The notes under the pieces were generated by a model. The model was not told the DNA's origin and did not search any database. It worked only from the letters and a program-made list of their open reading frames with translations. From the IMG/VR virus record IMGVR_UViG_3300005529_000001, positions 272,882 to 336,881 of that record: DNA of 64,000 nucleotides; one strand, 5' to 3'. This stretch comes from a virus. Of this stretch, positions 399 through 41,197 are shown piece by piece; position 1 is the first letter of the stretch; every line of letters starts with the position of its first letter. The translations under genes were made by a program, and so were the position numbers.

Positions 399-893
399 TC
401 ACCTGTTCTTACGTAGGTCTCTCAGAGCTAGTTGCCGTTGTAACGGCCCAACCCTGTCCAACATCAAGATACCGTTAAGATGATCGATCTCGTGTTGTAC
501 AATCCGTGCAGCCCAATCGACAAAAGCTTCTTTGTGAGGTTTGCCCTCAACATCAAGGTACTCCACAACGACCCAAGCATGCCTGGGAACAGCTAATTTG
601 ACCCCAGGTAACGACAAACAACCTTCATCATCTGTCGTCTTGTCGTGTGATGTATCAATGATTATCGGGTTGATTATTGCACGAAGTTCGTTTCCTTGTG
701 CACCTGCGGTCGGATCCATCACCAAGATCTGGATTGTTGAGTTCACTTGGGGTGCCGCGAGTCCCACGCCATCACCAGCGTACATTGCCAGCGTCATCTC
801 CTCAACGAGCTTCGCCAACGTAGCATCAAAACGCTCAACGGGAGCGCAGCTCCACTTGAGATCTGAGCTGGGATACTCAACGATGTTTAGCAT
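399..893 (-). CDS. def: peptide deformylase
   Basis: All three PDF motifs: GVGLAAPQV (motif I), EGCLSLPG (motif II), QHEIDHLNG (motif III). Confidence 0.9.
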   Translation of the reverse strand: MLNIVEYPSSDLKWSCAPVERFDATLAKLVEEMTLAMYAGDGVGLAAPQVNSTIQILVMDPTAGAQGNELRAIINPIIIDTSHDKTTDDEGCLSLPGVKLAVPRHAWVVVEYLDVEGKPHKEAFVDWAARIVQHEIDHLNGILMLDRVGPLQRQLALRDLRKNR

Positions 894-6181: not shown

Positions 6182-7828
6182 TCACTTCCTGAGCCAGTCG
6201 AAGTCCGAGACAAAACGACCGTAGGGACTACGTTGCAATTCTTGTGGGTTTCGTGGCCGCATGACGCTGTACGCGTTGACGCCGGCGATGTTCGGGTCGA
6301 CAAGCGGTTGGGCTTCGTTGATGTTCCCGGGCATCTTGTTGATGTCTTTCCTGTCCACGTGGGTGGCAGCTAACATTGCGTATGCCATCTCGCGCGCTTG
6401 TTCGCTGACCTGACCACCACCTTCGATGAGCCATGTTCCGATCGCCAAGCTCAGGACCAGGTCATCCCACGAGTCCTTTCCCGCAAGAGCTTTGTTCCCT
6501 TCCCAGATGAACGACTGGAGCTGGTCAAACAGGCGTCGCGAATATGACCTCAGTTGCTTGTTCCTGATCAACTCTTCTAGCTTAGCCAAGATCTGTGTTC
6601 GGGTCTTCTGGTTTGTGTTTGGAAACCCAGGTAGCTCGTCCTTAGGATCGATGGGCATGTAGTTGAACGGGTCACCCGTGTGCTTGGGATAGTAGAGCTT
6701 TTTGTAGTTGATCTGGTCACGTAGTTTCACACAGACCAGGTATCCGAAGGTGTTTTGTTCTGGGATTATGAGGGCATCGCAGTACTTTTTGCCCCACTCC
6801 GCTAGCAAGTCTGCCAAGTGCTCTGGCGGGATCTTACCCATGTACTCAGCACACACCTCATTGTCAACGGTGTCAATGACATGGAACGCTGAGTAGTCAT
6901 GCGCATCACCACGGCTGACGTCCGCGCTCAACACATAACGGTGACCCGCGACAGGCGGGCTCCAAACCCAGACACCGCCCGCAGGCCCCTCTTTCGAGAT
7001 GGGTGGCATGATCATTTCACGCAGGTAATCGAGCTCTTCGGGCTGGAGGAATGTGTCACCTGATGCAATGAAGTCACACATGAACTCTTGCGCAATCTGA
7101 CGCTTGTTCATGCCCTTTGATTCGTTCTTGAACCATGCTTCATCGTGTTCAGGATGGACGGTCCAGTGAAGCCGGATGGGGTTGAAGCCGTTGAGTCCCG
7201 CTTCGGCTTCCGTCCACAAACGGTAATACTGCCCGCCGACGCCCTTGGGAGTCGATAGCACGATCGCCTTGCCACCCGTCGAGATCGTTGGTTTCAGACC
7301 CGTCCAGATCTCTTCAAAATCACGAATGATAGCAGCTTCATCAACTATCAGAAGCGACAATGCTTCTGATCGGCCCGCATCTTCAGATGTTGGGATGGCA
7401 ACAACCTGCGAGCCGTTGTCAAAAGTAATGGCTTGCTTGGTGGGCTCAAACTTGGGCAGCAACAACCACTTGGGCAAATTGTCAAGGATGACCTTGCACT
7501 TTTTGATCATGTTCATCGCGGTGGGAAGCTTGGTCGCGATGATGAGGATGTTCTGGTCCTTGTAAAAGATGGCGAGCCACGTTGCGTACGCTGCACATAA
7601 CGTAGACAGACCCAGCTGTCTTGACTTCAAGATGATGTTAAGACGGTGTTCTATGAACTGCCTGACGCAGTCATCCTGAAACGGGTACGTTTCAAATGGG
7701 AGCAAGCCTCGAGCGGGGTGCTGGATCTTGCAATACTTCTTCATGAAGTAGACAGGATCCTTGCCACACTTGATTATCTCCTCGATCTGCTCCTGCTTTG
7801 ACAGGGGTTTTGGAGCAGCTTTCGTCAT
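6182..7828 (-). CDS. terL: terminase large subunit (T4 gp17-like)
   Basis: Walker A-like KSRQLGLST (T4 SRQLGKT), Walker B LLIVDEAA, C-terminal RNaseH-like nuclease region (LSADVSRGDAHDYSAFHVID). Confidence 0.9.
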   Translation of the reverse strand: MTKAAPKPLSKQEQIEEIIKCGKDPVYFMKKYCKIQHPARGLLPFETYPFQDDCVRQFIEHRLNIILKSRQLGLSTLCAAYATWLAIFYKDQNILIIATKLPTAMNMIKKCKVILDNLPKWLLLPKFEPTKQAITFDNGSQVVAIPTSEDAGRSEALSLLIVDEAAIIRDFEEIWTGLKPTISTGGKAIVLSTPKGVGGQYYRLWTEAEAGLNGFNPIRLHWTVHPEHDEAWFKNESKGMNKRQIAQEFMCDFIASGDTFLQPEELDYLREMIMPPISKEGPAGGVWVWSPPVAGHRYVLSADVSRGDAHDYSAFHVIDTVDNEVCAEYMGKIPPEHLADLLAEWGKKYCDALIIPEQNTFGYLVCVKLRDQINYKKLYYPKHTGDPFNYMPIDPKDELPGFPNTNQKTRTQILAKLEELIRNKQLRSYSRRLFDQLQSFIWEGNKALAGKDSWDDLVLSLAIGTWLIEGGGQVSEQAREMAYAMLAATHVDRKDINKMPGNINEAQPLVDPNIAGVNAYSVMRPRNPQELQRSPYGRFVSDFDWLRK

Positions 7829-11135: not shown

Positions 11136-11779
11136 GCAATCACCTCAGCTTCTGGGTATTTTGCGAGTTCGCTCTCGTCAATCTCGAGCTCAACGTCTCG
11201 ACCCGCTAGGAACTGCATCTTGTGAATGTCTCCAAGCAAGACAAAGTCCCAACCACGGAAGAACTCAACCGTGATGCCCTCTTCAACCAACCAGTCACTC
11301 TCGGTTGTTGCTCCCCACACGGGACCGTGATAACACGCGATGTTGATCTTGCCGGGTACGGGCTTTACGTTGTCCCAGTTCGGTTCATCGAACAAGCTGA
11401 AGATGCCCCAGATATATCCGGGCGAAAACTCATACGTACCACTTTCCTTGTAGACGTGAATACGTGGGTTCTTCAACGCTTTGACGATGGGCGTCACCGC
11501 ATCCAAACGTGACAGGTTGACAAGGTTACCGTCGTGGTTTCCGAGAGTAAGATGCAGTTCAGCTGTCTCTGACAACGTTTCAAGCCACCAAACCATCTGT
11601 TCGATATACTCAGGCGACAAGCCTGAGGTCTTGGTGTGAAAGATGTCGCCTCCTACAAAGACGTGGTCAACCTTCTGTTCTTTGACCTGACGTGCAAAAG
11701 CAGAAAACACCTCTCGGTATTCGTCGTGCCTCGATAGTCCTCGCCAGTGAACGTCGGCAGTGTGAGCGATCCTCAACAT
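11132..11779 (-). CDS. Mre11/SbcD nuclease, N-terminal phosphoesterase domain only (T4 gp47-like)
   Basis: Motifs I-V present: AHTADVHW, GGDIFH, GNHD, CYHGP, GDIH; ORF stops (TGA) right after motif V where homologues continue. Confidence 0.85.
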   Translation of the reverse strand: MLRIAHTADVHWRGLSRHDEYREVFSAFARQVKEQKVDHVFVGGDIFHTKTSGLSPEYIEQMVWWLETLSETAELHLTLGNHDGNLVNLSRLDAVTPIVKALKNPRIHVYKESGTYEFSPGYIWGIFSLFDEPNWDNVKPVPGKINIACYHGPVWGATTESDWLVEEGITVEFFRGWDFVLLGDIHKMQFLAGRDVELEIDESELAKYPEAEVIA

Positions 11780-16790: not shown

Positions 16791-17651
16791 CTACACCACG
16801 ATCCCAAGGTCCCTCATGACCTGTCGGGTGATGTGGCGGTAATCGTTGAACCCGTTGGCCCGACTGTACTCTCGACCCGCCGCAGCGGTGTTCATCACCC
16901 GCTCCGTCAGCAGGAACTCTTCTGGTTTGACCTCCCAGATCTCCTTTGAACCATCGGTAAAGTAGACGATGAAGTCGGGCACGTGCCATCGCTTGTTGTT
17001 GTTATAGTAGTATGGGATCTTCAGGCTCTCGTATTCCCAGCCCTCGACCGTCGGGCTGGCGTCAAGGAACTTCATCGCCGCTTCCTCCCAGCTCGACTTG
17101 AAGAAGTGTTCCTTGGTATTCTTCACCGACACGTAGGTTCCCTTCTTGTTCTGGGTGCCGTAGGACCGGAACCTGCCCTCAGTGATCGCCTGTGCCTTCT
17201 TCTCTGACATCTTGGCGCGCGTCTCTTCCGAGTGCTTGCGGCCGTACATGCCGTTGTTGGTGCCAGACCGCTTCTCACCCTTCGAGACCTCGCTCAGGTG
17301 GCGTTTCGTCTCCTCGGTGTGGCTCTTCCCCAGCCAGGGTCGCCATTCTCCTCGGGCTGCCTTTTCTTGGATCGTGGCTTTCGCTTTGGCGTGTGACGCA
17401 GGCGAGTTCAGTGCCTGGATCGACTTCTGCCACGTCTCCGGGTGATCGTGCTTGTACTTGCCACGACACTTGTTGTCGCAGAAGTGCATCACTCCGCGAT
17501 CCCTGGTCTTTGACCCTTCGATGATCGCTTCACAGGCATCACACTTGAAGCGATGGACAATGCTCTTGCGGTTGGTGACGAGAGATCGCCGCTCGATAAT
17601 CTCCAGGAGCATGGCAATAAGTACCACGCACACTGGCGTTAGCAACGTCAA
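16791..17651 (-). CDS. homing endonuclease-like protein: NUMOD3 DNA-binding repeats fused to PD-(D/E)xK nuclease domain
   Basis: Two GKSHTEETKRHLSEVSKG / GRKHSEETRAKMSEKK NUMOD3-type repeats; C-terminal WHVPDFIVYF..EIWEVKP nuclease core; sits between two paralogous structural genes. Confidence 0.65.
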   Translation of the reverse strand: MTLLTPVCVVLIAMLLEIIERRSLVTNRKSIVHRFKCDACEAIIEGSKTRDRGVMHFCDNKCRGKYKHDHPETWQKSIQALNSPASHAKAKATIQEKAARGEWRPWLGKSHTEETKRHLSEVSKGEKRSGTNNGMYGRKHSEETRAKMSEKKAQAITEGRFRSYGTQNKKGTYVSVKNTKEHFFKSSWEEAAMKFLDASPTVEGWEYESLKIPYYYNNNKRWHVPDFIVYFTDGSKEIWEVKPEEFLLTERVMNTAAAGREYSRANGFNDYRHITRQVMRDLGIVV

Positions 17652-29916: not shown

Positions 29917-31377
29917 TCAGAGGATCTTAGACGCAAGAGTGGCAAGCTCCGATCTCTCGCCCTTGATGAGGGTGACATGGCCGGCGATAGGGTAATCTTT
30001 GAACCGCTCGACGGCGTAAGTCAACCCGTTAGTGAAAACATCCACATGAACGTTGTCAATCTGCTCAATATCACCCGTCAAGATGATTTTGGTGCCATCT
30101 CCCACACGAGTAATGATCGTCTTCAGCTCGTGCATCGACAGGTTCTGGGCTTCGTCGATGACAATGAAGGCGTTCGGGATCGACCTTCCCCTGATGAAAG
30201 TGATCGCTTCAATCTCAATGAGACCACGCTCCTGCATCAGGTTCAGGTACATGTTATCGTCAAACGCTTGCTTTTCGTTGCCTGCACGCCGCTGTCTCTT
30301 GGGACGGTTCCTCTTGGTGTCCATCAGGAAGTTGAGGTTGTCACGGACGGGAGCGATCCACGGTTCCATCTTCTCCTCAAGGGTCCCTGGCAAAAAGCCA
30401 ATGTCCTTACCAACGGGCTGGACTGGACGGGTGACGATCAGCTTGTCATACCGTGCAACAGCTGGGTTTCCTAACGTCTTCAGTTGCTCGAGACCTGCCG
30501 CAAGCGCGAGCAGCGTCTTGCCCGTGCCAGACGGGCCCACCAGCGTCAACAGCTTGATCTTTTCATCAAACAACAAATCAAGCGAGAACTGCTGTTCTTT
30601 GTTCCTGGGAGTCAAGCCAAACGCTTGTTCGATTTTCTCGACGGGAACAAGTGGCTTCTTGGGATCAATGCACTTCGCCAGGGCTGACTTGGTAGGTCGG
30701 CCATCGTCAAAAGCGTGCTTGATGACAACGATCTGGTTTGGGTACAGCTGATGATTACTTGTCAGGTCAAGCTCACCATGCTTGTAGAAGTGATCAATTC
30801 GTTCTTCTTCGAGCTCAATCACTTCAACGCCACGGTAAAATTTCTGCGGGCTGTCAACAGCCACACGCATCTTTTTGTAGTCTTCACACTTGACACCGAT
30901 GCTGTCACACTTGATCCTGACGTTGATGTCCTTTGACACCAAGATAGAACCATCGACGTGTTTGGCATAAGCGATGATCATGTTGTCAGGCTTGCCCAGT
31001 TCTAGCCCAGGCAACTGGACGTCTTTGATGGCGTCCATTCGCCCTACCTTTAGGGTCCCACCCTCGTGCAGCTGGACACCTGCGTAGAGACCGCCTCGTT
31101 CTCGAAGAGTGTCGAGCGATCGGGTCACTTGACGCGCATTACGTCCGACTTCATCGGGTCGGCTCTTGTGACGATCTAGCTCTTCTAAGACAATCATCGG
31201 GATGATGACGTCATTTTCTTCAAATGAAAAGATCGAGTTCGGATCGCTTAGAAGGACGTTGGTATCAAGGACGTACGTCTTCTTCTGGCTCATGAGATTT
31301 ATTGTTCTTTCTGTTGGTGCGTTGTGCACTGTTGGTTCTTTCCCTTTGGTTTCTTGAACATAGAAAGGGCCAACCAT
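29917..31377 (-). CDS. phoH: PIN-domain PhoH-like ATPase (PhoH2/YlaK-type)
   Basis: N-terminal PIN (YVLDTNVLL..D..E), C-terminal P-loop GPSGTGKT and PhoH-like DEAQN box (VIDEAQNLS). Confidence 0.85.
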   Translation of the reverse strand: MVGPFYVQETKGKEPTVHNAPTERTINLMSQKKTYVLDTNVLLSDPNSIFSFEENDVIIPMIVLEELDRHKSRPDEVGRNARQVTRSLDTLRERGGLYAGVQLHEGGTLKVGRMDAIKDVQLPGLELGKPDNMIIAYAKHVDGSILVSKDINVRIKCDSIGVKCEDYKKMRVAVDSPQKFYRGVEVIELEEERIDHFYKHGELDLTSNHQLYPNQIVVIKHAFDDGRPTKSALAKCIDPKKPLVPVEKIEQAFGLTPRNKEQQFSLDLLFDEKIKLLTLVGPSGTGKTLLALAAGLEQLKTLGNPAVARYDKLIVTRPVQPVGKDIGFLPGTLEEKMEPWIAPVRDNLNFLMDTKRNRPKRQRRAGNEKQAFDDNMYLNLMQERGLIEIEAITFIRGRSIPNAFIVIDEAQNLSMHELKTIITRVGDGTKIILTGDIEQIDNVHVDVFTNGLTYAVERFKDYPIAGHVTLIKGERSELATLASKIL

Positions 31378-31405
31378 TACATTCTAATCATCTGGTGGGT
31401 TATCC

Positions 31406-31693
31406 ATGCAAGAAGGCAAGAAACGTCTGAAGATCATTCAGCCCAACGTTACGGGCAACCGCGTCGTTGATGGGACAACGTGTTTTGCAGTACAAGCCAA
31501 GGCCGGGATAGACTGCCAGCGAAAACGATGTCCGCATTGGATCCAGTTCAAGGAGGGTCACAATTGCGTTCACATCGCTTCTCAAAACGGCCCACACACT
31601 CTTCAACGAATCGGACAGATCTATGGGCTAACTCGCATGCGTATCTGTCAGATCGAGAAGGCCATTTTTGAAAAGATCCGCCGCGTCAGCTGA
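31406..31693 (+). CDS. small protein with sigma-70 region 4.2-like HTH and N-terminal Cys/His cluster
   Basis: TLQRIGQIYGLTRMRICQIEKAIFEKIRR parallels sigma70 TLEEVGxxFxVTRERIRQIEAKALRKLR; upstream C..C..C.H...H.C.H. Confidence 0.55.
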   Translation: MQEGKKRLKIIQPNVTGNRVVDGTTCFAVQAKAGIDCQRKRCPHWIQFKEGHNCVHIASQNGPHTLQRIGQIYGLTRMRICQIEKAIFEKIRRVS

Positions 31694-32219
31694 CGGGCTC
31701 TTCTTTTTCACCAGGCTTCTCTTCGACTTTCGGCTCGTTCTTGGCCGCTTCGACAACGGGTGCCAGTTTTACTTCGTCAGTTGGTTTCTCAACTGGCTTG
31801 GAAGCTTCGACTGTTGGAACAGGCTTCGCTTCAAGCTTGACAACATCAACGGACTTAGCGGTTTCTTTGTTGCTCTCAGAGACGACAGGAGCCGGCTTAG
31901 AAATTACGACTTTCTTGGGTAGCTCGACCTTCTTTGTGGGCATCGAAACAACTGGAGCTACCGTTGTTGGGGTCTCGACAGCCTCCAGAGAGGCCGCCTG
32001 ATGGAAACCCATGTGATATTGGTTACCTGCCGGCTTGGCTCCCGCCTTGGGATTTGGGGTGATGCGCCCAGCCTTGTCGGTGATGGACCAAGCTTTGGTT
32101 GGGTCAAGGTTGAGATCGTGAATGTCGGCTAGGACTGCGCGAGGTGCGGGCATCTGTTGTCTCCGCCTGTAAATAGGCTTCAGAGACGACGAAGCCCCAG
32201 CGATCACCGCCAGGGCCAA
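31686..32219 (-). CDS. low-complexity KPV/PVV-repeat protein
   Basis: 177 aa, C-terminal repeats of K-P-V/E-x motifs; lysine-rich. Confidence 0.4.
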   Translation of the reverse strand: MALAVIAGASSSLKPIYRRRQQMPAPRAVLADIHDLNLDPTKAWSITDKAGRITPNPKAGAKPAGNQYHMGFHQAASLEAVETPTTVAPVVSMPTKKVELPKKVVISKPAPVVSESNKETAKSVDVVKLEAKPVPTVEASKPVEKPTDEVKLAPVVEAAKNEPKVEEKPGEKEEPVS

Positions 32220-32251
32220 GCCACAGTAGGTATCCGAGAGATCGAAGCTGT

Positions 32252-32482
32252 TTAAGCAGCCTTCTTGTCCTTCTTCGGTTTCGAAGCCTTCGAAGCCTTG
32301 TCTGTCTCGACCGTCATCTTGACAAGCGAAGCCGCAAGGCTCTTCAGCTCACGCAGGCCCTTACGAGCACGGACGCCTGCAGCAGCTGTGCCCCGAGCGT
32401 TCTTGACCACGTCAAGCTCAAGCTCTTCAACGAGCTTCTTCAGTTCAGTCCACTTCTCGAGAACGAGATTGGTGCCTTCCAT
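32252..32482 (-). CDS. histone H1-like (Hc1-family) DNA-binding protein
   Basis: NARGTAAAGVRARKGLRELKSL matches Hc1 core NKAAAQRVRTESIKLEK; Lys-rich tail KASKASKPKKDKKAA. Confidence 0.6.
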   Translation of the reverse strand: MEGTNLVLEKWTELKKLVEELELDVVKNARGTAAAGVRARKGLRELKSLAASLVKMTVETDKASKASKPKKDKKAA

Positions 32483-32528
32483 TGGTAGTGTCCTCCAGCC
32501 ATAAGTATACAGCCTGACGACTAGCCGT

Positions 32529-32572
32529 AAAACAAATGGCGGCTTCAGCGCGCGCGAGAGCCCTACTGAAGC
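32529..32572 (-). terminator. putative intrinsic terminator downstream of helicase gene
   Basis: Inverted repeat GCTTCAG...CTGAAGC (minus-sense) followed by ATTTGTTTT. Confidence 0.35.
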
Positions 32573-35923: not shown

Positions 35924-35985
35924 GGTGCACCTTCCAACATTCTAGCTGCCTACTTAGAGCCAGTAAACCAGCAGAGGGGATCTCG

Positions 35986-37416
35986 ATGGCACCATCGCTC
36001 AAAGAACGGTACGACCAACGCCAGCTGCAACTGCTCCAGGAACACACCAGAGCAGCTGACGCGCAACTGTTGCAAGAACAACAAACCGCTGAGTTGTTGC
36101 TCGAAGCGATGGATCCTGAAGACTTGCAAAAAGTCACCGCGATCGTTCAGAAACTAGACACGATCAAATCTCCAGAGCTTCCTCACCTGTCACAAGCGAT
36201 CGAACAAGCCCAGGCTGAACTAAACAAGTACACGGGTGGTGGGCCCATTGCTGCGGCTTGGTCCAAGCTAAAGACCAAGGTCGGTATCGATAACCCGGTC
36301 GTCAAGGTCACCACGTTTGCCGACGCTCTCGAGCGTGGGTTTTCACAGATCCCAACGATCTTGAAAAACAATGGGGTTGACCTCGCAAAAACGGATCTCA
36401 ACAAGAGCTTGTCGACCACGTTACAAACACAACAGCCCACTGGTGCTGGTGATGGTGAAGGCGGGACCAAGTCAAACGTTACAGGCAAAGCGAATGACAA
36501 GGAAGACCTTGAATACAAGCCCACGCCCAAGAAGATCGGGGCCAAGAGCGATGAAGAGCTGGGCAAAGCTCGCTTTGGTGACAACAGGAAGAACGACGAG
36601 ACCCACTACGACATTCCAGGTCCATCTGGGACCCAACCCGGGACCAAGCCAGGAACTGCCCCTGCAACGGCAAAGAAACCGCCGCCAGCACAGCGCACAG
36701 GAGGCCAGGACCAGCCACCAAAACCCGCTCCTGGGGTGAAAAAACCGCTAGCAGCTAGCAGGAAGATCTCATCGGCTGACGAGGGACACAACCTTGATGA
36801 GGCAGGGCCGAGCGCGAGCGTTTCGGGTGATCAAAAGCTGAAGAACATTGTCGCTCAAATACGCAAAGCCCTAGCGCCGGGAGGCTTGTTTGGGGCATTC
36901 AAACGAATCCCATACATCGATAGCGCTGCGCTTGCTCAAGAGCTTGTCCAAGCGCCAATCAAGGTCTTTTCGAACGTTGCAAAACGCATCCAAGCAGGAG
37001 CAAAAGCATCTGAGATCGCGCCTGACATGCGTAACCAGATCCAGGGCCAGGGTGACCAACAGACAAAGCACGCGAACACAGCGACTCCCACCAAACAAGC
37101 TGGGCAATCGCAACCCGGACAGCCAGCCAAGCCGACCACGGCTACGACTGACACGACGAGCACCGGACAGCAGCCTCCCAAGGGTCCGGGTGAAAAACGT
37201 GGTGGTGGAGCCGAAGCGAAAAGCCCGAGCGAAGCGGGCGGAACATCTCCCTCTCAAAAAGCCCAGCAGTTTCGTTCGGGTCTTGACAAGATCTACAAGG
37301 GAGCCGGCGTTGATGCCAACATGGGCCAGAAGCTCTTGAAGTACCTCATCAACAACAAACTCCTGGACCGCGGTGCCGTTGAAACACACGGTGCTGGTGA
37401 ACCAAAAGCAGCCTAG
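35986..37416 (+). CDS. intrinsically disordered Pro/Lys/Thr/Gly/Gln-rich protein with N-terminal coiled coil
   Basis: ATG 35986 with AGAGGGGA RBS; 1.4 kb stop-free frame in ~52% GC DNA; opposing-strand ORFs fragmented. Confidence 0.5.
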   Translation: MAPSLKERYDQRQLQLLQEHTRAADAQLLQEQQTAELLLEAMDPEDLQKVTAIVQKLDTIKSPELPHLSQAIEQAQAELNKYTGGGPIAAAWSKLKTKVGIDNPVVKVTTFADALERGFSQIPTILKNNGVDLAKTDLNKSLSTTLQTQQPTGAGDGEGGTKSNVTGKANDKEDLEYKPTPKKIGAKSDEELGKARFGDNRKNDETHYDIPGPSGTQPGTKPGTAPATAKKPPPAQRTGGQDQPPKPAPGVKKPLAASRKISSADEGHNLDEAGPSASVSGDQKLKNIVAQIRKALAPGGLFGAFKRIPYIDSAALAQELVQAPIKVFSNVAKRIQAGAKASEIAPDMRNQIQGQGDQQTKHANTATPTKQAGQSQPGQPAKPTTATTDTTSTGQQPPKGPGEKRGGGAEAKSPSEAGGTSPSQKAQQFRSGLDKIYKGAGVDANMGQKLLKYLINNKLLDRGAVETHGAGEPKAA

Positions 37417-38609
37417 GACAGGTAAGCACCGAGCTGAGACAGGGTCTTGATGCACCTGTCGGCATGCACGCGCGCTGACATCTCAGTCGCCACAAGCTCA
37501 CCTGTTTCAGTCACGCCAAAATCTACGGCAGACTTGATGGCACGAAGCGCGTTGTCGATGGCTTGCGAACAGACAACATAGTCTCTGTCATCAGGCAACC
37601 TGATGATGACATGGTTTGGGCTCAATGACTTGATCCGCTTGTCAAGGAGCTTTCCCTTGTCATCGACTTGTTCGTCTTCACGGCGCTTACGTAAGTTAGC
37701 GACATGTACAGCGACCTGGGCATGGGTGGAGGTGTTTGCAACGATCGTCCGGCCCTTGAAAACAGTGACCTGTTCAACGTAAGGTGCATCATGAAACTTG
37801 ATCGAACTGATCAGATCACCCTTGAGGCTTGACACTAGGTCAGCCCCACAAACAACCGAGAGATCGACCAAAGAGTTCATCCCGTCAAGATCAAACGGGG
37901 CGCTGATGGGCAACATCCTCAAGCTACCACGGTCATAGTTGACCTTCAAGGTGTGCTTGACATCATTGCTCATCCCACGAAGGAAAACAACGACGGGTTC
38001 TTTTGCTGTAGCAGCAGCTTCAAGCAAGTGATGGATCTCGGACACTTCTTCAACATACCCGTCGATGCAAACCACTCGCGGATGGACAAAGCTGGCGTCG
38101 ATGGGCAAGATCGGGACCAAATCAAACGTGTAACCCCTCACAAGCTCAACGGAAGGAGTGAGGGAGTGTGTCTTCTCGATGATGATGCGGCCGCCGTAAC
38201 CAGCTAGCTCGAGAGCACGTTCTAACATCTTTGTGGTACGAACTCCCGCTCGAGAAGCATGGGCGTTGACGAGGCTTCTCACGTCAGCGGCAGTGGCTGA
38301 CCTGGGTTCCAATTGGGTGGGACGCGGGGGTACTTCAAGTGCACCCAATTTTTCAAGAACGAGGTCAACGGTGCGGTCAAAGCCCCCGGGACCCAATTTT
38401 TCTGCATGGAGGGCGTGGGTCATGATAGTTTCATGGACCGACCTGTCAAACTCAGAAGACATCTTCGAGTTGAAAACGACCTGCATGTGAGAGTGGACCA
38501 GCAAGCGGTCTTTCTCACGGACCAACGCCGCCCTGACATCCTTCATGGCAACAAGCCGAGCACGCACTCTCCTGAGCGTTGCTGCTGAATCAATGTTGAC
38601 GTCTCCCAC
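37413..38609 (-). CDS. GroEL-like chaperonin homolog, truncated (no C-terminal equatorial segment) with degenerate ATP-binding motif
   Basis: Apical region KEPVVVFLRGMSNDVKHTLKVNYDRGSLRMLPISAPFDLDGMNSLVDLSVVCGADLVS aligns to GroEL [59 protein letters not shown]; intermediate-domain match; DGTTT position reads AADVRS; ends near GroEL ~415. Confidence 0.65.
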   Translation of the reverse strand: MGDVNIDSAATLRRVRARLVAMKDVRAALVREKDRLLVHSHMQVVFNSKMSSEFDRSVHETIMTHALHAEKLGPGGFDRTVDLVLEKLGALEVPPRPTQLEPRSATAADVRSLVNAHASRAGVRTTKMLERALELAGYGGRIIIEKTHSLTPSVELVRGYTFDLVPILPIDASFVHPRVVCIDGYVEEVSEIHHLLEAAATAKEPVVVFLRGMSNDVKHTLKVNYDRGSLRMLPISAPFDLDGMNSLVDLSVVCGADLVSSLKGDLISSIKFHDAPYVEQVTVFKGRTIVANTSTHAQVAVHVANLRKRREDEQVDDKGKLLDKRIKSLSPNHVIIRLPDDRDYVVCSQAIDNALRAIKSAVDFGVTETGELVATEMSARVHADRCIKTLSQLGAYLS

Positions 38610-38626
38610 CTGGAGACTCTACACCC

Positions 38627-39058
38627 TTACTGTGTGTAGTGGATAAGAAGGTGACCGGTGAGGATATCAAAAACGAGCTTCCCAGCTCCCGTAAGAGCAG
38701 CCGTTCCCGCGAGACCCAAGAGCCCCTTGATGACCCAGTTTGCGGTGTTGATCCAGTTCAACGCACCCTTGACCTTCTGGTAAAGGCCCTCGTCCTTGTC
38801 ATAGATCGCTTTGTGAACCTCATCCAGCTTTTTCACCTGGGTGTCCTGGCCCATCTTGACGTCTTTGAGATCGGTCTCAATCGTGTCGATCTTGCTGATT
38901 TTTTCCATGAGGTGATCGAAACCACCGTTCAGGACATGGGCGTCTTCGAGCTTCCTGTCAAGCTTGGCCAGGACATCATCCTGTGCCGCAAGACGCTCAA
39001 CGATCTCCGACGTTGTTGGCTTTCTACCCGGGACTAGTGCAGCTTTCTTGGTGGCCAT
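38627..39058 (-). CDS. coiled-coil protein with C-terminal transmembrane anchor
   Basis: C-terminal hydrophobic NWVIKGLLGLAGTAALTGAGKLVFDIL. Confidence 0.45.
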   Translation of the reverse strand: MATKKAALVPGRKPTTSEIVERLAAQDDVLAKLDRKLEDAHVLNGGFDHLMEKISKIDTIETDLKDVKMGQDTQVKKLDEVHKAIYDKDEGLYQKVKGALNWINTANWVIKGLLGLAGTAALTGAGKLVFDILTGHLLIHYTQ

Positions 39059-39286
39059 GCTCTCTCGCGACGCGCGTTAAAGACCCTGATCCCTAGAGAT
39101 CTTTACCACTCTGACCACTTAATCCTCTGATCCGCTTTCCGCTAAGATCCTCAGATCTACATGGAGGAGTGACAGTTGGACACCGAACCGCGGGGTCCTA
39201 CGCTAAGTATTGCAACATATTGAAGATCTGTAGAGACTACTGACAACCTGAACAGACACGCATGGGAGAGCTACAATCTGCTCACC
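39059..39286. promoter_or_regulatory. divergent intergenic region with repeated AGATCT/GATCC motifs
   Basis: 228 bp non-coding gap between divergently oriented genes; AGATCT x3, GATCC x3. Confidence 0.3.
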
Positions 39287-41197
39287 GTGTTTGATTTCAA
39301 CCAAAGCATCTTCGGGTCCGAAATAACCATCCCACATACTGCAAGGGTGATCTTTGTCTCTGACATGTTCGTAGAAGACTATGTCGGGGGTGCAGAGCTG
39401 ACAAGCCAAGCCTTGCTTGACGCAGCGCCTTTCGAGGTTTTCAAGCTGCATTCCAAAGATGTCAGCATGCAACTGTTGCAAGCGGGTGCTGACAAGTTCT
39501 GGATCTTTGGAAATTTCTCACAGATGAACCCGCAACTGATCCCAACCATCGTTGGGAACCTGAGATATTCCATCCTCGAGTACGACTTCAAGTACTGCCG
39601 CGCTAGGTCACCCGAAAAGCACTTCGCTGAGCATGGCATGCCCTGTGATTGCCACGATCAGATAAATGGGAAGATCATCAGCGCCTTCTACTACGGTAGC
39701 ATGGGACTCTGGTGGATGTCTCAAAAGCAGAAAGAGCGATACCTCCAGCTGTTCCCATTCCTTGCAGAGCGAAGCAACACCGTCCTGTCCAGCGTCTTCG
39801 ACGCCAAGACGCTTGGCATGCTCAAGGCATTGCGGGTCCAGCGTGAAAAGTGTGGAGACAAAAACGGGTGGGTCGTCCTGGGCAGCGAGTCATGGATCAA
39901 GGGCGCTGATGACGCAAAAGCTTGGTGCGAAGCAAACGGGAAAGACTACCAAGTCCTGTGGGGCGAGCCTTACGCCCTTGTTCTCAAGAAGTTGTCGATG
40001 GCCGAGGGCTTCGTCTACCTGCCCAAGGGAGGCGATACCTGTCCCCGGATGGTCATCGAAGCAAAGCTGCTCGGTTGCAAGCTGCAGCTGAATGACAACG
40101 TGATGCACAAGGATGAAGAGTGGTTTGACACTGATGATCTTGACAGCATCAGCGACTACCTTTTCGTCTCTCCCCAGACGTTTTGGAACGGCATCCGTGA
40201 GATGATGAACTACCAGCCCAAGATCTCGGGCTACACCACGACATACAACTGCATCAAGCAAGCGTACCCGTTCGAGCAGTGCATCCAATCGATGCTCGCT
40301 TTCTGTAACGAGGTCTGCGTCATGGACGGTGGTTCAAGCGATGGAACGTACGAGAAACTCAGCGAGATGGCTGAGAAAGAACCTCGTTTGAAGATCAAGA
40401 CCCGCCAGCTTGACTGGTCTACCAAACGTCACCCGGTCTTCGATGGCATACAAAAAGCTGAAGCTCGTAAGATGTGTACGGGTGAGTTCTGTTGGCAGAT
40501 GGACAGCGATGAGGTTGTTCACGAGAGCGACGGAAAGAAGATCAGCGACCTGTGCCGGATGTTGCCCAAGGGTGTTGACGTCATGTGCTTGCCCGTCATT
40601 GAATATTGGGGTGGCTATGACAAGGTTCGCATGGACATCCAACCCTGGAAGTGGCGTTTGAGCCGTAACCTTCCTCACATCACCCACGGCATCCCGGTAG
40701 AACTGAGAGCCACAGACGCCGAAGGCCAGCTCTATGCCAAGCCGGGTACCGACGGTTGTGACATGATTGACCAGGATGGCAACAGATTGCCCGTTCTCAA
40801 CTTCTATACTCCTGACGTCGAACAGGTTCGCCAGGTTGGCATGCTGGGAAATGCAGAAGCCCAACGCCAGTACGAAGCTTGGCTGAACAACGTTGCGCTC
40901 AACCTTCCATGCGTTTACCACTACTCTTGGTTCGATCTGCCCCGGAAGATCCGGCTTTACCGTGACTACTGGCAGAACCACTGGAACGCCCTGTGGGACC
41001 GCGACACTTCAGACACCGCAGCGAACAACATGATGTTTGGCAAGCCCTGGAGCGAAGTTACCGATGAAGACATTGCCCAACGTGCCGCTGAGATGAAAGA
41101 GAAGCTGGGCGGTTGGATCTGGCACAAGCCGTGGGATGGGAAAGCGATGACGCCCCACGTGACCATTCACAAGACACCACCTAGGATCATGCAATGA
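39287..41197 (+). CDS. two-domain glycosyltransferase (N-terminal GT4/GT-B, C-terminal GT2/GT-A)
   Basis: N-term RVIFVSD...GGAE and GGDTCPRMVIEAKLLGC; C-term MDGGSSDGT and DSDE (DxD); start uncertain (GTG 39287 vs TTG 39176 with GGAGGA RBS). Confidence 0.7.
   Translation: MFDFNQSIFGSEITIPHTARVIFVSDMFVEDYVGGAELTSQALLDAAPFEVFKLHSKDVSMQLLQAGADKFWIFGNFSQMNPQLIPTIVGNLRYSILEYDFKYCRARSPEKHFAEHGMPCDCHDQINGKIISAFYYGSMGLWWMSQKQKERYLQLFPFLAERSNTVLSSVFDAKTLGMLKALRVQREKCGDKNGWVVLGSESWIKGADDAKAWCEANGKDYQVLWGEPYALVLKKLSMAEGFVYLPKGGDTCPRMVIEAKLLGCKLQLNDNVMHKDEEWFDTDDLDSISDYLFVSPQTFWNGIREMMNYQPKISGYTTTYNCIKQAYPFEQCIQSMLAFCNEVCVMDGGSSDGTYEKLSEMAEKEPRLKIKTRQLDWSTKRHPVFDGIQKAEARKMCTGEFCWQMDSDEVVHESDGKKISDLCRMLPKGVDVMCLPVIEYWGGYDKVRMDIQPWKWRLSRNLPHITHGIPVELRATDAEGQLYAKPGTDGCDMIDQDGNRLPVLNFYTPDVEQVRQVGMLGNAEAQRQYEAWLNNVALNLPCVYHYSWFDLPRKIRLYRDYWQNHWNALWDRDTSDTAANNMMFGKPWSEVTDEDIAQRAAEMKEKLGGWIWHKPWDGKAMTPHVTIHKTPPRIMQ

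What the first reader, a model, noticed from the sequence alone, without database searches (positions are those of the whole stretch)
31406..31693. Lone plus-strand mini-protein with sigma-70 region 4.2 HTH and a Cys/His cluster
In a 35-kb minus-strand block, one 95-aa gene points the other way. Its C-terminus closely parallels the -35-binding helix-turn-helix of sigma70 region 4 (…TRMRICQIEKAIFEKIRR vs …TRERIRQIEAKALRKLR), preceded by C-x10-C-x4-C-x-H…H-x-C-x-H. A free region-4 module could compete with host sigma for the beta-flap or -35 elements (an anti-sigma/appropriator-like host shut-off factor), or act as a minimal late sigma.
Basis: seen in the sequence. Interest (0 to 1): 0.6.

Follow-up and report, generated by a model that had tools for sequence, protein, structure and literature searches.

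The report
Four-cysteine stand-alone sigma region 4 protein
A very large uncultured T4-like phage carries a conserved 95-residue gene for a free-standing copy of the promoter-reading tip (region 4) of the bacterial sigma factor, with half of it rebuilt around four invariant cysteines; it is most likely a small metal-stabilised DNA-binding transcription regulator and belongs to a widespread family that nobody has described.

Summary
ORF 31406..31693 (+) is a real gene under purifying selection. It is the only plus-strand gene in a 35.5-kb minus-strand block of a 369.5-kb T4-like phage contig.

- **Sigma match:** residues 62-92 match Pfam Sigma70_r4 above threshold (34.7 vs 24.1 bits), covering only the 4.2 helix-turn-helix. 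The closest solved relatives are primary sigma factors.
- **Cysteines:** C26, C37, C42 and C54 (C-x10-C-x4-C-x11-C) are invariant across 116 very divergent relatives.
- **Family:** about 370 clusters at 50% identity, all small proteins, with no Pfam, PHROG or PDB counterpart for the cysteine half. A bacterial branch aligns without gaps to RpoD region 4, which places the cysteines in region 4.1.
- **Context:** in all 84 related loci the gene sits divergently from a PIN-PhoH gene. It has its own sigma70-type promoter with an unusual -35 box, T(G/A)(T/A)ACA, shared with the first gene of the plus-strand block.

It cannot be a sigma factor because it lacks region 2. Two -35-contact residues differ from host sigma (E585M, R588C), so it is not a plain decoy for consensus -35 elements.

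The best reading is a sequence-specific transcription regulator. Whether it docks on RNA polymerase is untested.

The parts
31406..31693 (+). Gene for the 95-aa Cys4 + sigma region 4 protein (stop codon included)
   Evidence: ORF. Pfam Sigma70_r4 hit. 201 homologues in the 90%-identity clusters and 370 clusters at 50% identity. Excess of third-position and synonymous changes.
31406..31477 (+). Residues 1-24: basic N-terminal tail (MQEGKKRLKIIQ...), predicted disordered. It is conserved only within the jumbo-phage branch and is absent in many relatives.
   Evidence: pLDDT 47-48 for residues 1-20. Column conservation. Many distant members start 1-3 residues before the first Cys.
31481..31567 (+). 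Residues 26-54: Cys4 module (C26, C37, C42, C54; W45 and N53 nearly invariant). It is colinear with sigma region 4.1.
   Evidence: Invariant in 116 divergent sequences. The 10/4/11 spacing is kept in 200 of the 235 family sequences in which the motif was scored. Gapless alignment of bacterial member P0225 with RpoD 532-613. pLDDT about 90. No Pfam or PDB sequence match for this half.
31589..31681 (+). Residues 62-92: helix-turn-helix homologous to sigma70 region 4.2 (recognition helix TRMRICQIEK)
31354..31383 (+). The gene's own sigma70-type promoter: -35-like box TTGAACA (31354-31360), 17-nt spacer, -10 TACATT (31378-31383). GGTGGG (31394-31399) lies 6 nt before the ATG, where a ribosome-binding site would be expected.
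   Evidence: T(G/A)(T/A)AC-N16-18-TAnnnT is present in 50 of 69 distinct upstream regions of the homologues, against 3.0 +/- 1.6 in shuffles and 0-4 upstream of seven neighbouring gene families. The A that follows AC is invariant, 50/50.
39249..39277 (+). Second promoter of the same class (TGAACA-N17-TACAAT), in front of the first gene of the plus-strand block (39287..41197)
   Evidence: Only 3 matches to this class in the 64-kb window; 2 of them lie directly upstream of plus-strand gene starts. Conserved upstream of the homologous gene in 12 of 15 distinct relatives, against 0.4 in shuffles.
31685..31694 (.). Palindrome GTCAGCTGAC, in which the stop codons of the gene and of the convergent minus-strand ORF 31686..32219 overlap (8-nt overlap)
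   Evidence: Sequence. The overlap is also seen in relatives, 17 nt in L002. No terminator-like site follows the gene on the plus strand before about 32247.
29917..31293 (-). Divergent neighbour: a PIN + PhoH fusion ATPase. Its start is probably at 31293, not 31377.
   Evidence: Pfam PIN_4 and PhoH. The relatives' product is 463 aa with a 116-nt intergenic gap. Adjacent and divergent in all 84 loci.

Best explanation
The gene encodes a stand-alone sigma70 region 4 domain of about 70 residues.
- The 4.2 helix-turn-helix is kept.
- The 4.1 half has been rebuilt as a four-cysteine metal site. This is inferred to be a structural Zn site; an Fe-S cluster is not excluded.
- In this phage branch a disordered basic tail precedes the domain.

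It is a core gene of a large lineage of T4-like jumbo phages. It is expressed from its own sigma70-type promoter, against the direction of the surrounding operon.

Its most likely function is that of a sequence-specific DNA-binding transcription regulator. It would read a short asymmetric -35-like element with the 4.2 recognition helix. The equivalents of R584, R586 and Q589 are kept. E585->Met and R588->Cys give it a specificity different from host sigma.

The best candidate target is the T(G/A)(T/A)ACA box found at its own promoter and at the promoter of the plus-strand gene block. The protein would then set the timing of that promoter class, including its own (autoregulation).

Shown: homology, the invariant Cys4, conservation and synteny, and the promoter class.
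Inferred: metal binding, DNA binding, the identity of the target, and the direction of regulation.
For: - Region 4.2 homology is above the Pfam threshold, and primary sigma region 4 is the closest solved relative.
- 108 of 116 family members hit Sigma70_r4; no other family is hit consistently.
- The four Cys are the only invariant columns at 20% mean column identity. Their spacing is kept in 200 of 235 sequences.
- The AlphaFold model built from the 116-sequence alignment is confident for residues 25-95: block pLDDT 90-97, five models at 81-82.4.
- Only the HTH superposes on sigma domain 4 structures, at 1.5-1.6 A.
- Recognition helices differ between subfamilies (TRMRICQIEK, SFVRVKQIED, TRERVRQIEA), as expected for proteins with their own DNA targets.
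- The promoter box T(G/A)(T/A)ACA is conserved, asymmetric and specific to this gene and the plus-block leader. It is distinct from the TTTAC class that drives Hc1 and the minus block.
- A weak anecdote from five variant-helix relatives. The three that keep the R584 equivalent keep 'ACA' in the box. The two with R->K have lost it.
- Established knowledge: R584 contacts the C:G pair of TTGACA, and R588 and E585 read the TTG half (Campbell et al. 2002; Gardella 1989; Siegele 1989).
- Precedent: small phage proteins with Sigma70_r4 similarity (the LtrA family) activate late operons (PMC3753634).
Against: - There is no experimental datum of any kind, and the host is unknown.
- Both promoter classes match TTGACA at 4 of 6 positions. 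Host sigma70 alone could read both, so the box need not be this protein's target.
- If the protein were needed to activate its own promoter class, its first expression would need another route.
- An isolated sigma region 4 binds DNA only weakly as a monomer (established knowledge). No dimerisation element or dyad symmetry was found.
- The covariation between helix and box rests on five hand-read AT-rich intergenic regions.
- In other phage lineages the homologue sits inside co-directional operons without its own promoter. The arrangement seen here is therefore not universal.
Confidence: 0.5

Rival explanations
1. Trans-acting replacement of host sigma region 4 ('sigma-4 swap'). The protein docks on the RNA polymerase beta-flap in place of host sigma70 region 4, as T4 gp33 or AsiA/MotA do functionally. 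It then redirects the holoenzyme to promoters that carry the T(G/A)(T/A)ACA box.
For: - It is a whole region 4 in length: the bacterial member aligns without gaps with RpoD 532-613.
- Two -35-like classes share the same -10 type and spacing in one phage lineage, which suggests two -35 readers.
- The box keeps ACA, read by the retained R584 equivalent. It is degenerate or shifted in the TTG half, where E585 and R588 are replaced.
- T4-like phages are known to remodel sigma region 4 or the flap for middle and late transcription (established knowledge).
Against: - Region 4.1 is rebuilt, and the C-terminal tail after RKLRH is absent in the phage branch. Both contribute to flap binding in sigma70 (established knowledge).
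- No gp55-, gp33- or sigma-like partner was found among the proteins of the window that were scanned.
- The gene's own promoter belongs to the class it would activate.
- No interaction was tested.
Confidence: 0.2
2. Decoy or anti-sigma-like host shut-off factor. The free region 4 titrates the beta-flap, activators that contact sigma region 4, or host -35 elements, and so lowers host transcription.
For: Genuine region 4 homology. The bacterial branch keeps the exact host-type recognition helix and tail (TRERVRQIEAKALRKLRHP...). Phage proteins that imitate pieces of sigma have been proposed before (T4 Srd/Srh, from memory).
Against: - The phage branch has changed two base-contacting residues and lacks the tail.
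- Recognition helices diversify between subfamilies, which a decoy of a conserved host surface would not need.
- There is no zf-HC2 anti-sigma motif and no match to any anti-sigma family.
Confidence: 0.08
3. Redox- or metal-sensing switch. The four cysteines hold an Fe-S cluster or a labile metal, and its state controls DNA binding. This would tie phage gene timing to host physiology, by analogy with WhiB-like proteins and with the Cys-rich extensions of the sigma factors CorE, CorE2 and OrbS.
For: The four invariant Cys include no CxxC zinc knuckle. An invariant Trp and Asn lie next to the ligands. Precedent: metal-binding Cys motifs next to region 4.2 control sigma activity (PMC9023288).
Against: - The spacing C-x10-C-x4-C-x11-C matches none of the known Fe-S or CorE/OrbS motifs (PMC9023288; established knowledge of Wbl proteins).
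- C26 and C54 lie at the starts of helices 26-33 and 55-60 and C37 and C42 in the loop between them (secondary structure), an arrangement equally compatible with a structural Zn staple.
- Nothing distinguishes the metals computationally.
Confidence: 0.1
4. A DNA-binding protein with a non-transcriptional role, for example nucleoid or genome organisation together with the neighbouring Hc1 histone-like protein, or replication or packaging site recognition.
For: Strict synteny with Hc1, a helicase and PhoH in 84 loci. Homologues in other phages lie among replication and nucleotide-metabolism genes.
Against: Synteny is conserved for the whole block, not specifically for this pair. The sigma 4.2-type HTH is known almost only from promoter recognition.
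Confidence: 0.07

Closest known systems
Region 4 of primary (group 1) sigma70-family sigma factors (Pfam PF04545)
   Same: Homologous helix-turn-helix: 43% identity over 35 residues to RpoD. The equivalents of T583, R584, R586, Q589 and E591 are kept. The whole domain has the same length as region 4.1+4.2.
   Different: - It is stand-alone, with no regions 1-3.
- Region 4.1 is replaced by a Cys4 site.
- E585->M and R588->C.
- There is no C-terminal tail in the phage branch.
- The Pfam match covers only profile positions 19-49.
LtrA (Sigma70_r4-like), RinA, ArpU and LtrC late-transcription activators of Gram-positive phages (PMC3753634, PMC3152322)
   Same: Small phage-encoded proteins. LtrA has limited similarity to sigma region 4. 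They act as promoter-specific transcription activators without being sigma factors.
   Different: No Cys4 module is described for them. They sit upstream of terS in temperate siphoviruses. The PHROGs and NCBIfam scans of this protein listed only sigma-factor families and no RinA/ArpU/Ltr family. Here the gene lies far from the terminase gene (6182..7828) in a T4-like jumbo phage.
T4 gp33, and the AsiA/MotA 'sigma appropriation' system
   Same: They are phage devices in T4-like viruses that occupy or remodel the sigma region 4 / beta-flap position to change promoter class. This is a functional analogy for the rival reading.
   Different: There is no sequence or fold similarity. gp33 does not bind DNA. 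MotA and AsiA are unrelated folds (established knowledge).
ECF sigma factors with Cys-rich extensions next to region 4.2 (CorE, CorE2, OrbS; PMC9023288)
   Same: A cluster of four or five cysteines sits directly beside a region 4.2 HTH, binds metal and controls activity.
   Different: Their motifs are C-terminal, with different spacings (C-x4-C-x2-C-x-C; C-x2-C-x3-C-x5-C), and lie within complete sigma factors. Here the site is N-terminal to the HTH and replaces region 4.1.
WhiB-like (Wbl) [4Fe-4S] proteins
   Same: Similar size and four invariant Cys. They are part of the sigma region 4 machinery, and the PDB entries that hit the query are Wbl:sigmaA4 complexes.
   Different: The query matches the sigmaA region 4 chain, not the Wbl chain. 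There is no C-x2-C-x5-C motif and no WhiB Pfam hit. Wbl proteins occur only in Actinobacteria (PMC6282962).

Membership tests
Sigma70_r4 domain (Pfam PF04545) | HMM score at or above the curated gathering threshold | tested here: met
   34.7 bits against 24.1, E=1.2e-8. 108 of 116 relatives also match.
Sigma70_r4 domain (Pfam PF04545) | Match over the whole domain, including the region 4.1 helices (profile positions 1-18) | tested here: not met
   Only profile positions 19-49 of 50 are matched. The N-terminal half is the Cys4 module. It is colinear with region 4.1 in the bacterial member, but its sequence is not recognisably similar.
Sigma70-family sigma factor (functional sigma) | Region 2 (core binding, -10 recognition and melting) present | tested here: not met
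   The protein has 95 aa. All Pfam and NCBIfam matches are confined to residues 60-94 and to the C-terminal end of the sigma models.
Sigma70-family sigma factor (functional sigma) | -35-contacting residues of region 4.2 (R584, E585, R586, R588, Q589) conserved | tested here: inconclusive
   R77, R79 and Q82 are kept. E585->M78 and R588->C81, nearly invariant within the jumbo-phage branch. The positions vary in other branches.
Zinc-binding anti-sigma factors (ZAS, zf-HC2) | H-x3-C-x2-C motif and a zf-HC2 profile match | tested here: not met
   The motif is absent from the sequence. There is no such Pfam hit even at E<=10.
WhiB-like proteins | C-x(n)-C-x2-C-x5-C cluster motif and a WhiB profile match | tested here: not met
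   The spacing is C-x10-C-x4-C-x11-C. There is no WhiB hit. Structural and sequence hits are to the sigma chain of the Wbl complexes.
RinA / ArpU / Ltr phage late activators | Profile match to these families; position upstream of terS | tested here: not met
   PHROGs listed only phrog_351 (sigma factor) over the HTH plus two weak unknown-function families. NCBIfam listed sigma families plus one weak putative-regulator model. The terminase gene is 23 kb away.
T4 gp33 / AsiA / MotA | Sequence or fold similarity; binding to the beta-flap or sigma region 4 | tested here: not met
   No sequence or fold match in PHROGs, PDB or BFVD. Binding cannot be tested with these tools.
Cys4 metal-binding domain (generic) | Four invariant ligands with conserved spacing; metal actually bound | tested here: inconclusive
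   Invariance and spacing are met. The metal's identity and occupancy cannot be tested here.

The most novel reading that the evidence does not exclude
A phage-encoded, trans-acting replacement for host sigma region 4. The Cys4-stapled mini-domain takes the region 4 position on RNA polymerase, or pre-binds the promoter. It reads a T(G/A)(T/A)ACA box in place of the host -35 element. One promoter class of a jumbo T4-like phage would thereby be switched on or off, with the Cys4 site possibly acting as a redox or metal switch. Bacterial members with a host-identical recognition helix would then be a previously unrecognised class of free 'sigma-4' regulators in cells.
Probability: 0.15. Interest if true: 0.85.

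Novelty: new variant of a known kind. Interest (0 to 1): 0.58.

Why it matters
Phages are known to retarget host RNA polymerase with whole sigma factors, with region-2-only proteins (T4 gp55), and with unrelated proteins that remodel region 4 (AsiA, gp33). A free, metal-stapled region 4 would be a missing piece of that repertoire: the -35-reading module used on its own.

The family is large, about 370 clusters at 50% identity. It is a core gene of an uncultured lineage of 300-370-kb phages, it also has bacterial members, and it has no entry in Pfam, PHROGs or the PDB for its cysteine half.

It also gives a compact, easily testable system: a 70-residue protein, a 7-bp box, and two promoter classes with the same -10 element. 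That system could show how -35 specificity can be re-engineered and whether region 4 can work in trans.

Tried and rejected
- **Cultured-phage relatives.** tblastn of the protein and of an AT-rich relative against 50,697 GenBank phage records found nothing. A bacterial-type member hit only RpoD genes carried in phage or contaminant records.
- **Cys half alone.** A sequence search of this half against the PDB gave only chance hits.
- **Bacterial homologues in GTDB representatives.** A degenerate DNA pattern gave 3 hits, all with in-frame stops, so all chance.
- **Palindromic operator.** TGTACA looked like one, but the flanks show no dyad symmetry beyond chance. This idea was rejected.
- **Box as a genome-wide motif.** There are only 3 full promoter matches in 64 kb. 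The bare heptamer TTG(T/A)ACA occurs 21 times against 13.6 +/- 4.1 expected. It is not a dispersed repeat.
- **Partner proteins.** Pfam and PHROGs scans of most window proteins found none that resemble gp55, gp33 or a sigma factor. The other 305 kb of the contig could not be read.
- **Defence-system models.** PADLOC gave no hit for this protein.
- **Literature.** Full-text searches found no description of this family.
- **Source names.** The databases call members only 'hypothetical' or generic 'sigma subunit'.

Full report
**1. The observation**

The ORF is exactly as described: 31406..31693 on the plus strand, ATG to TGA, 95 residues. Every other plausible gene between 399 and 35923 is on the minus strand. 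The independent gene calls on the parent contig agree.

The ORF is translated. Against a relative with 94% protein identity (L005), the differences at codon positions 1/2/3 are 5/3/40. Of the changed codons, 35 are synonymous and 6 are not. Four other gap-free comparisons behave the same way; the comparison with L057 was misaligned and is ignored.

**2. The sigma similarity is real but partial**

- Pfam Sigma70_r4 scores 34.7 bits (cut-off 24.1, E=1.2e-8). [quoted passage not shown]
- PHROGs and NCBIfam hits also fall only on that stretch; those at E<=0.01 are sigma-factor models.
- A profile of the family finds primary sigma factors as the closest solved proteins.
- BLASTP against a 613-residue RpoD aligns T76 R77 M78 R79 I80 C81 Q82 with T583 R584 E585 R586 I587 R588 Q589.

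By established knowledge, R584 reads the C:G pair of TTGACA, R588 and E585 read the TTG half, and R586 and Q589 make further contacts. The protein keeps three of these five positions and has changed two.

**3. The cysteines**

Among 121 close homologues, C26, C37, C42 and C54 are invariant. H44 is kept in 97/121 and H52 in 102/121. H56 is kept in only 18/121.

In an alignment of 116 much more distant members (mean column identity 20%), the four Cys are the only invariant columns. W45 and N53 are at least 90% conserved. The spacing 10/4/11 is kept in 200 of 235 sequences. C81 in the recognition helix is conserved only in the jumbo-phage branch, so it is not a ligand.

Invariance of this kind points to a metal site. 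There are no CxxC knuckles. The motif matches none of the Fe-S or sigma-extension motifs known to me or described in PMC9023288. I infer a structural Zn staple, and I cannot exclude an Fe-S cluster.

**4. Structure**

With 64 close sequences the AlphaFold model was mediocre (pLDDT 70). With 116 diverse sequences it became confident: mean 82.4, blocks from residue 31 onward at 90-97, and five models within 81.0-82.4. Residues 4-15 are disordered. Helices lie at 26-33, 55-60, 66-73 and 77-94.

**5. Origin**

Some family members keep the canonical primary-sigma sequence TRERVRQIEAKALRKLRHP.... One of them, P0225, aligns without a single gap with RpoD residues 532-613 at 40% identity. Its cysteines fall in region 4.1. 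The protein is therefore a complete region 4 in length, with 4.1 rebuilt around the metal site.

P0225 and P0271 are encoded in bacterial chromosomes.
- P0225 lies after an rRNA operon, 3 nt upstream of an EngB-like GTPase gene.
- P0271 lies between panC and an enoyl-CoA hydratase gene.

The family is therefore not purely viral.

**6. Size and distribution of the family**

There are 201 hits in the 90%-identity clusters. There are 370 clusters at 50% identity with E<=0.001; apart from a few outliers the listed members are 41-170 residues long. Contigs reach 357 kb in the homologue table.

The window itself is part of a 369.5-kb metagenome contig. It carries a T4-type portal and large terminase, an SbcC-like ATPase (an SbcD-like ORF next to it was read by eye), PIN-PhoH, ClpP, an Hc1 histone-like protein and a DinG-type helicase. 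The nearest cultured terminase is only 38.6% identical, in Flavobacterium phage immuto. No cultured phage has a detectable homologue of the protein.

**7. Context**

In all 84 related loci the order is PIN-PhoH (-) | this gene (+) | variable ORF (-) | Hc1 (-), normally followed by the helicase and ClpP (-), which a few loci lack. These comprise 4 loci found by exact look-up and 80 from IMG/VR. The order holds down to 43% identity of the protein and 39% of PhoH. This gene is always the one pointing the other way.

In other phage lineages, homologues with different recognition helices sit co-directionally among replication and nucleotide-metabolism genes.

**8. Promoters**

The 60-125-nt gap upstream of the gene carries a conserved sigma70-type promoter: T(G/A)(T/A)AC-N16-18-TAnnnT.
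- It is present in 50 of 69 distinct sequences, against 3.0 +/- 1.6 in shuffles.
- It is present in 0-4 sequences upstream of each of seven neighbouring gene families.
- The base after AC is A in 50/50, so the box is T(G/A)(T/A)ACA. Its flanks show no dyad symmetry.

The same class precedes the homologues of the 636-residue gene that opens the plus-strand block: 12 of 15, against 0.4 in shuffles.

Hc1 instead has TTTAC-N16-18-TAnnnT: 53 of 71, against 0.8 in shuffles. From memory, this resembles the T4 early -35 consensus. The two classes exclude each other.

In the 64-kb window the TTTAC class occurs exactly twice, at 35967 and 32531. Both sites lie directly upstream of minus-strand gene starts. 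The TrwACA class occurs three times, and two of those sites lie directly upstream of plus-strand starts, at 31355 and 39249.

No promoter of either class lies on the minus strand between Hc1 and this gene in 71 of the 73 distinct loci; the other two have one match each. PhoH is therefore probably transcribed by read-through, antisense to this gene. This is an inference.

**9. What it most likely does**

It cannot be a sigma factor, because it has no region 2.

It is unlikely to be a plain decoy.
- Its base-contacting residues differ from host sigma.
- Recognition helices diversify between subfamilies.
- The parts of region 4 that hold the beta-flap are rebuilt or missing.

The economical reading is a metal-stabilised, sequence-specific DNA-binding regulator. 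The TrwACA box is the best candidate target. The invariant ACA half fits the retained R584 equivalent, and the degenerate upstream half fits the loss of E585 and R588.

Five variant-helix relatives gave a weak hint of covariation. ACA was kept in the three with Arg and lost in the two with Lys. These were hand-read AT-rich regions, so I give this little weight.

Host sigma70 could read both promoter classes, since each matches TTGACA at 4 of 6 positions. The target assignment therefore remains an inference. The sigma-4 swap is the more exciting rival. It is not excluded, and it is not supported by any partner found in the window.

**10. Comparison with known systems and novelty**

The closest relative by homology is primary sigma region 4.

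The closest in concept are these.
- The LtrA, RinA and ArpU late activators (PMC3753634, PMC3152322).
- T4 gp33 and AsiA/MotA.
- The Cys-rich extensions of CorE, CorE2 and OrbS (PMC9023288).
- Wbl proteins (PMC6282962).

The defining features of each were tested where possible and are not met, apart from the Sigma70_r4 score itself. Full-text searches found no description of the family.

I rate it a new variant of a known kind: a known HTH in a new, widespread architecture with an unknown role.

Noticed in passing
window 32504-32531 (-), 35940-35967 (-), 31355-31383 (+), 39249-39277 (+): There are two mutually exclusive sigma70-type promoter classes with the same -10 type and spacing, segregated by strand. 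TTTAC-N16-18-TAnnnT precedes Hc1 and the first gene of the minus block. T(G/A)(T/A)ACA-N15-17-TAnnnT precedes the mini gene and the first gene of the plus block. Both are conserved in relatives.
   Followed up: yes
window 32252-32482 (-): A homologue of the chlamydial histone H1-like protein Hc1 (Pfam PF07432, E=1e-9) is a conserved gene of this phage lineage. It is present in 82 of the 84 loci; the other two contigs end before its position.
   Followed up: partly
window 31686-32219 (-): This convergent ORF overlaps the mini gene's stop by 8 nt inside the palindrome GTCAGCTGAC, and both proteins end in VS. Its C-terminal half is a low-complexity K/P/E/V/A-rich sequence that is poorly conserved between relatives. 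It has no family match. The mini gene's transcript would run antisense through it up to hairpins at about 32247-32297.
   Followed up: partly
window 29917-31377 (-): The PIN + PhoH fusion (PhoH2-like) probably starts at 31293 rather than 31377. Relatives encode 463 aa and leave a 116-nt gap. No promoter of either class lies upstream of it on its own strand, so it seems to be transcribed through the antisense of the mini gene.
   Followed up: partly
L085 8001-8297; L096 7001-7276: Bacterial chromosomal members of the family (P0225, P0271) keep the exact primary-sigma recognition helix and C-terminal tail together with the Cys4 module. One lies just after a 23S rRNA 3' end and 3 nt upstream of an EngB-like GTPase gene. 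The other lies between panC and an enoyl-CoA hydratase gene. The organisms were not identified.
   Followed up: partly
window 1-64000; densest at 39001-39250: GATC occurs 559 times (8.7 per kb), roughly twice the 3.9 per kb expected for equal base frequencies. The densest 250-nt bin lies in the 228-nt divergent intergenic region between the minus and plus gene blocks. A GATC-rich stretch is visible at the same place in L002.
   Followed up: no
window 399-893, 893-1654, 16791-17651, 37413-38609: Within or beside the structural block are a peptide deformylase gene, a GIY-YIG homing endonuclease gene and a second endonuclease-like gene. A truncated GroEL-like gene (398 aa, phrog_5725) lies between the two blocks.
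   Followed up: no
L059 about 11390-11500 (upstream of the homologue of 39287..41197): The leader region of the plus-block gene in one AT-rich relative consists of tandem copies of GATACAATTAGA-like units. They were seen only in a printed sequence.
   Followed up: no
window 31406-31693, antisense frames; L002, L006, L009: The strand opposite the mini gene is open over the whole gene length (96 codons) in several relatives. This is probably a codon-usage effect in GC-rich genomes and was not analysed further.
   Followed up: no
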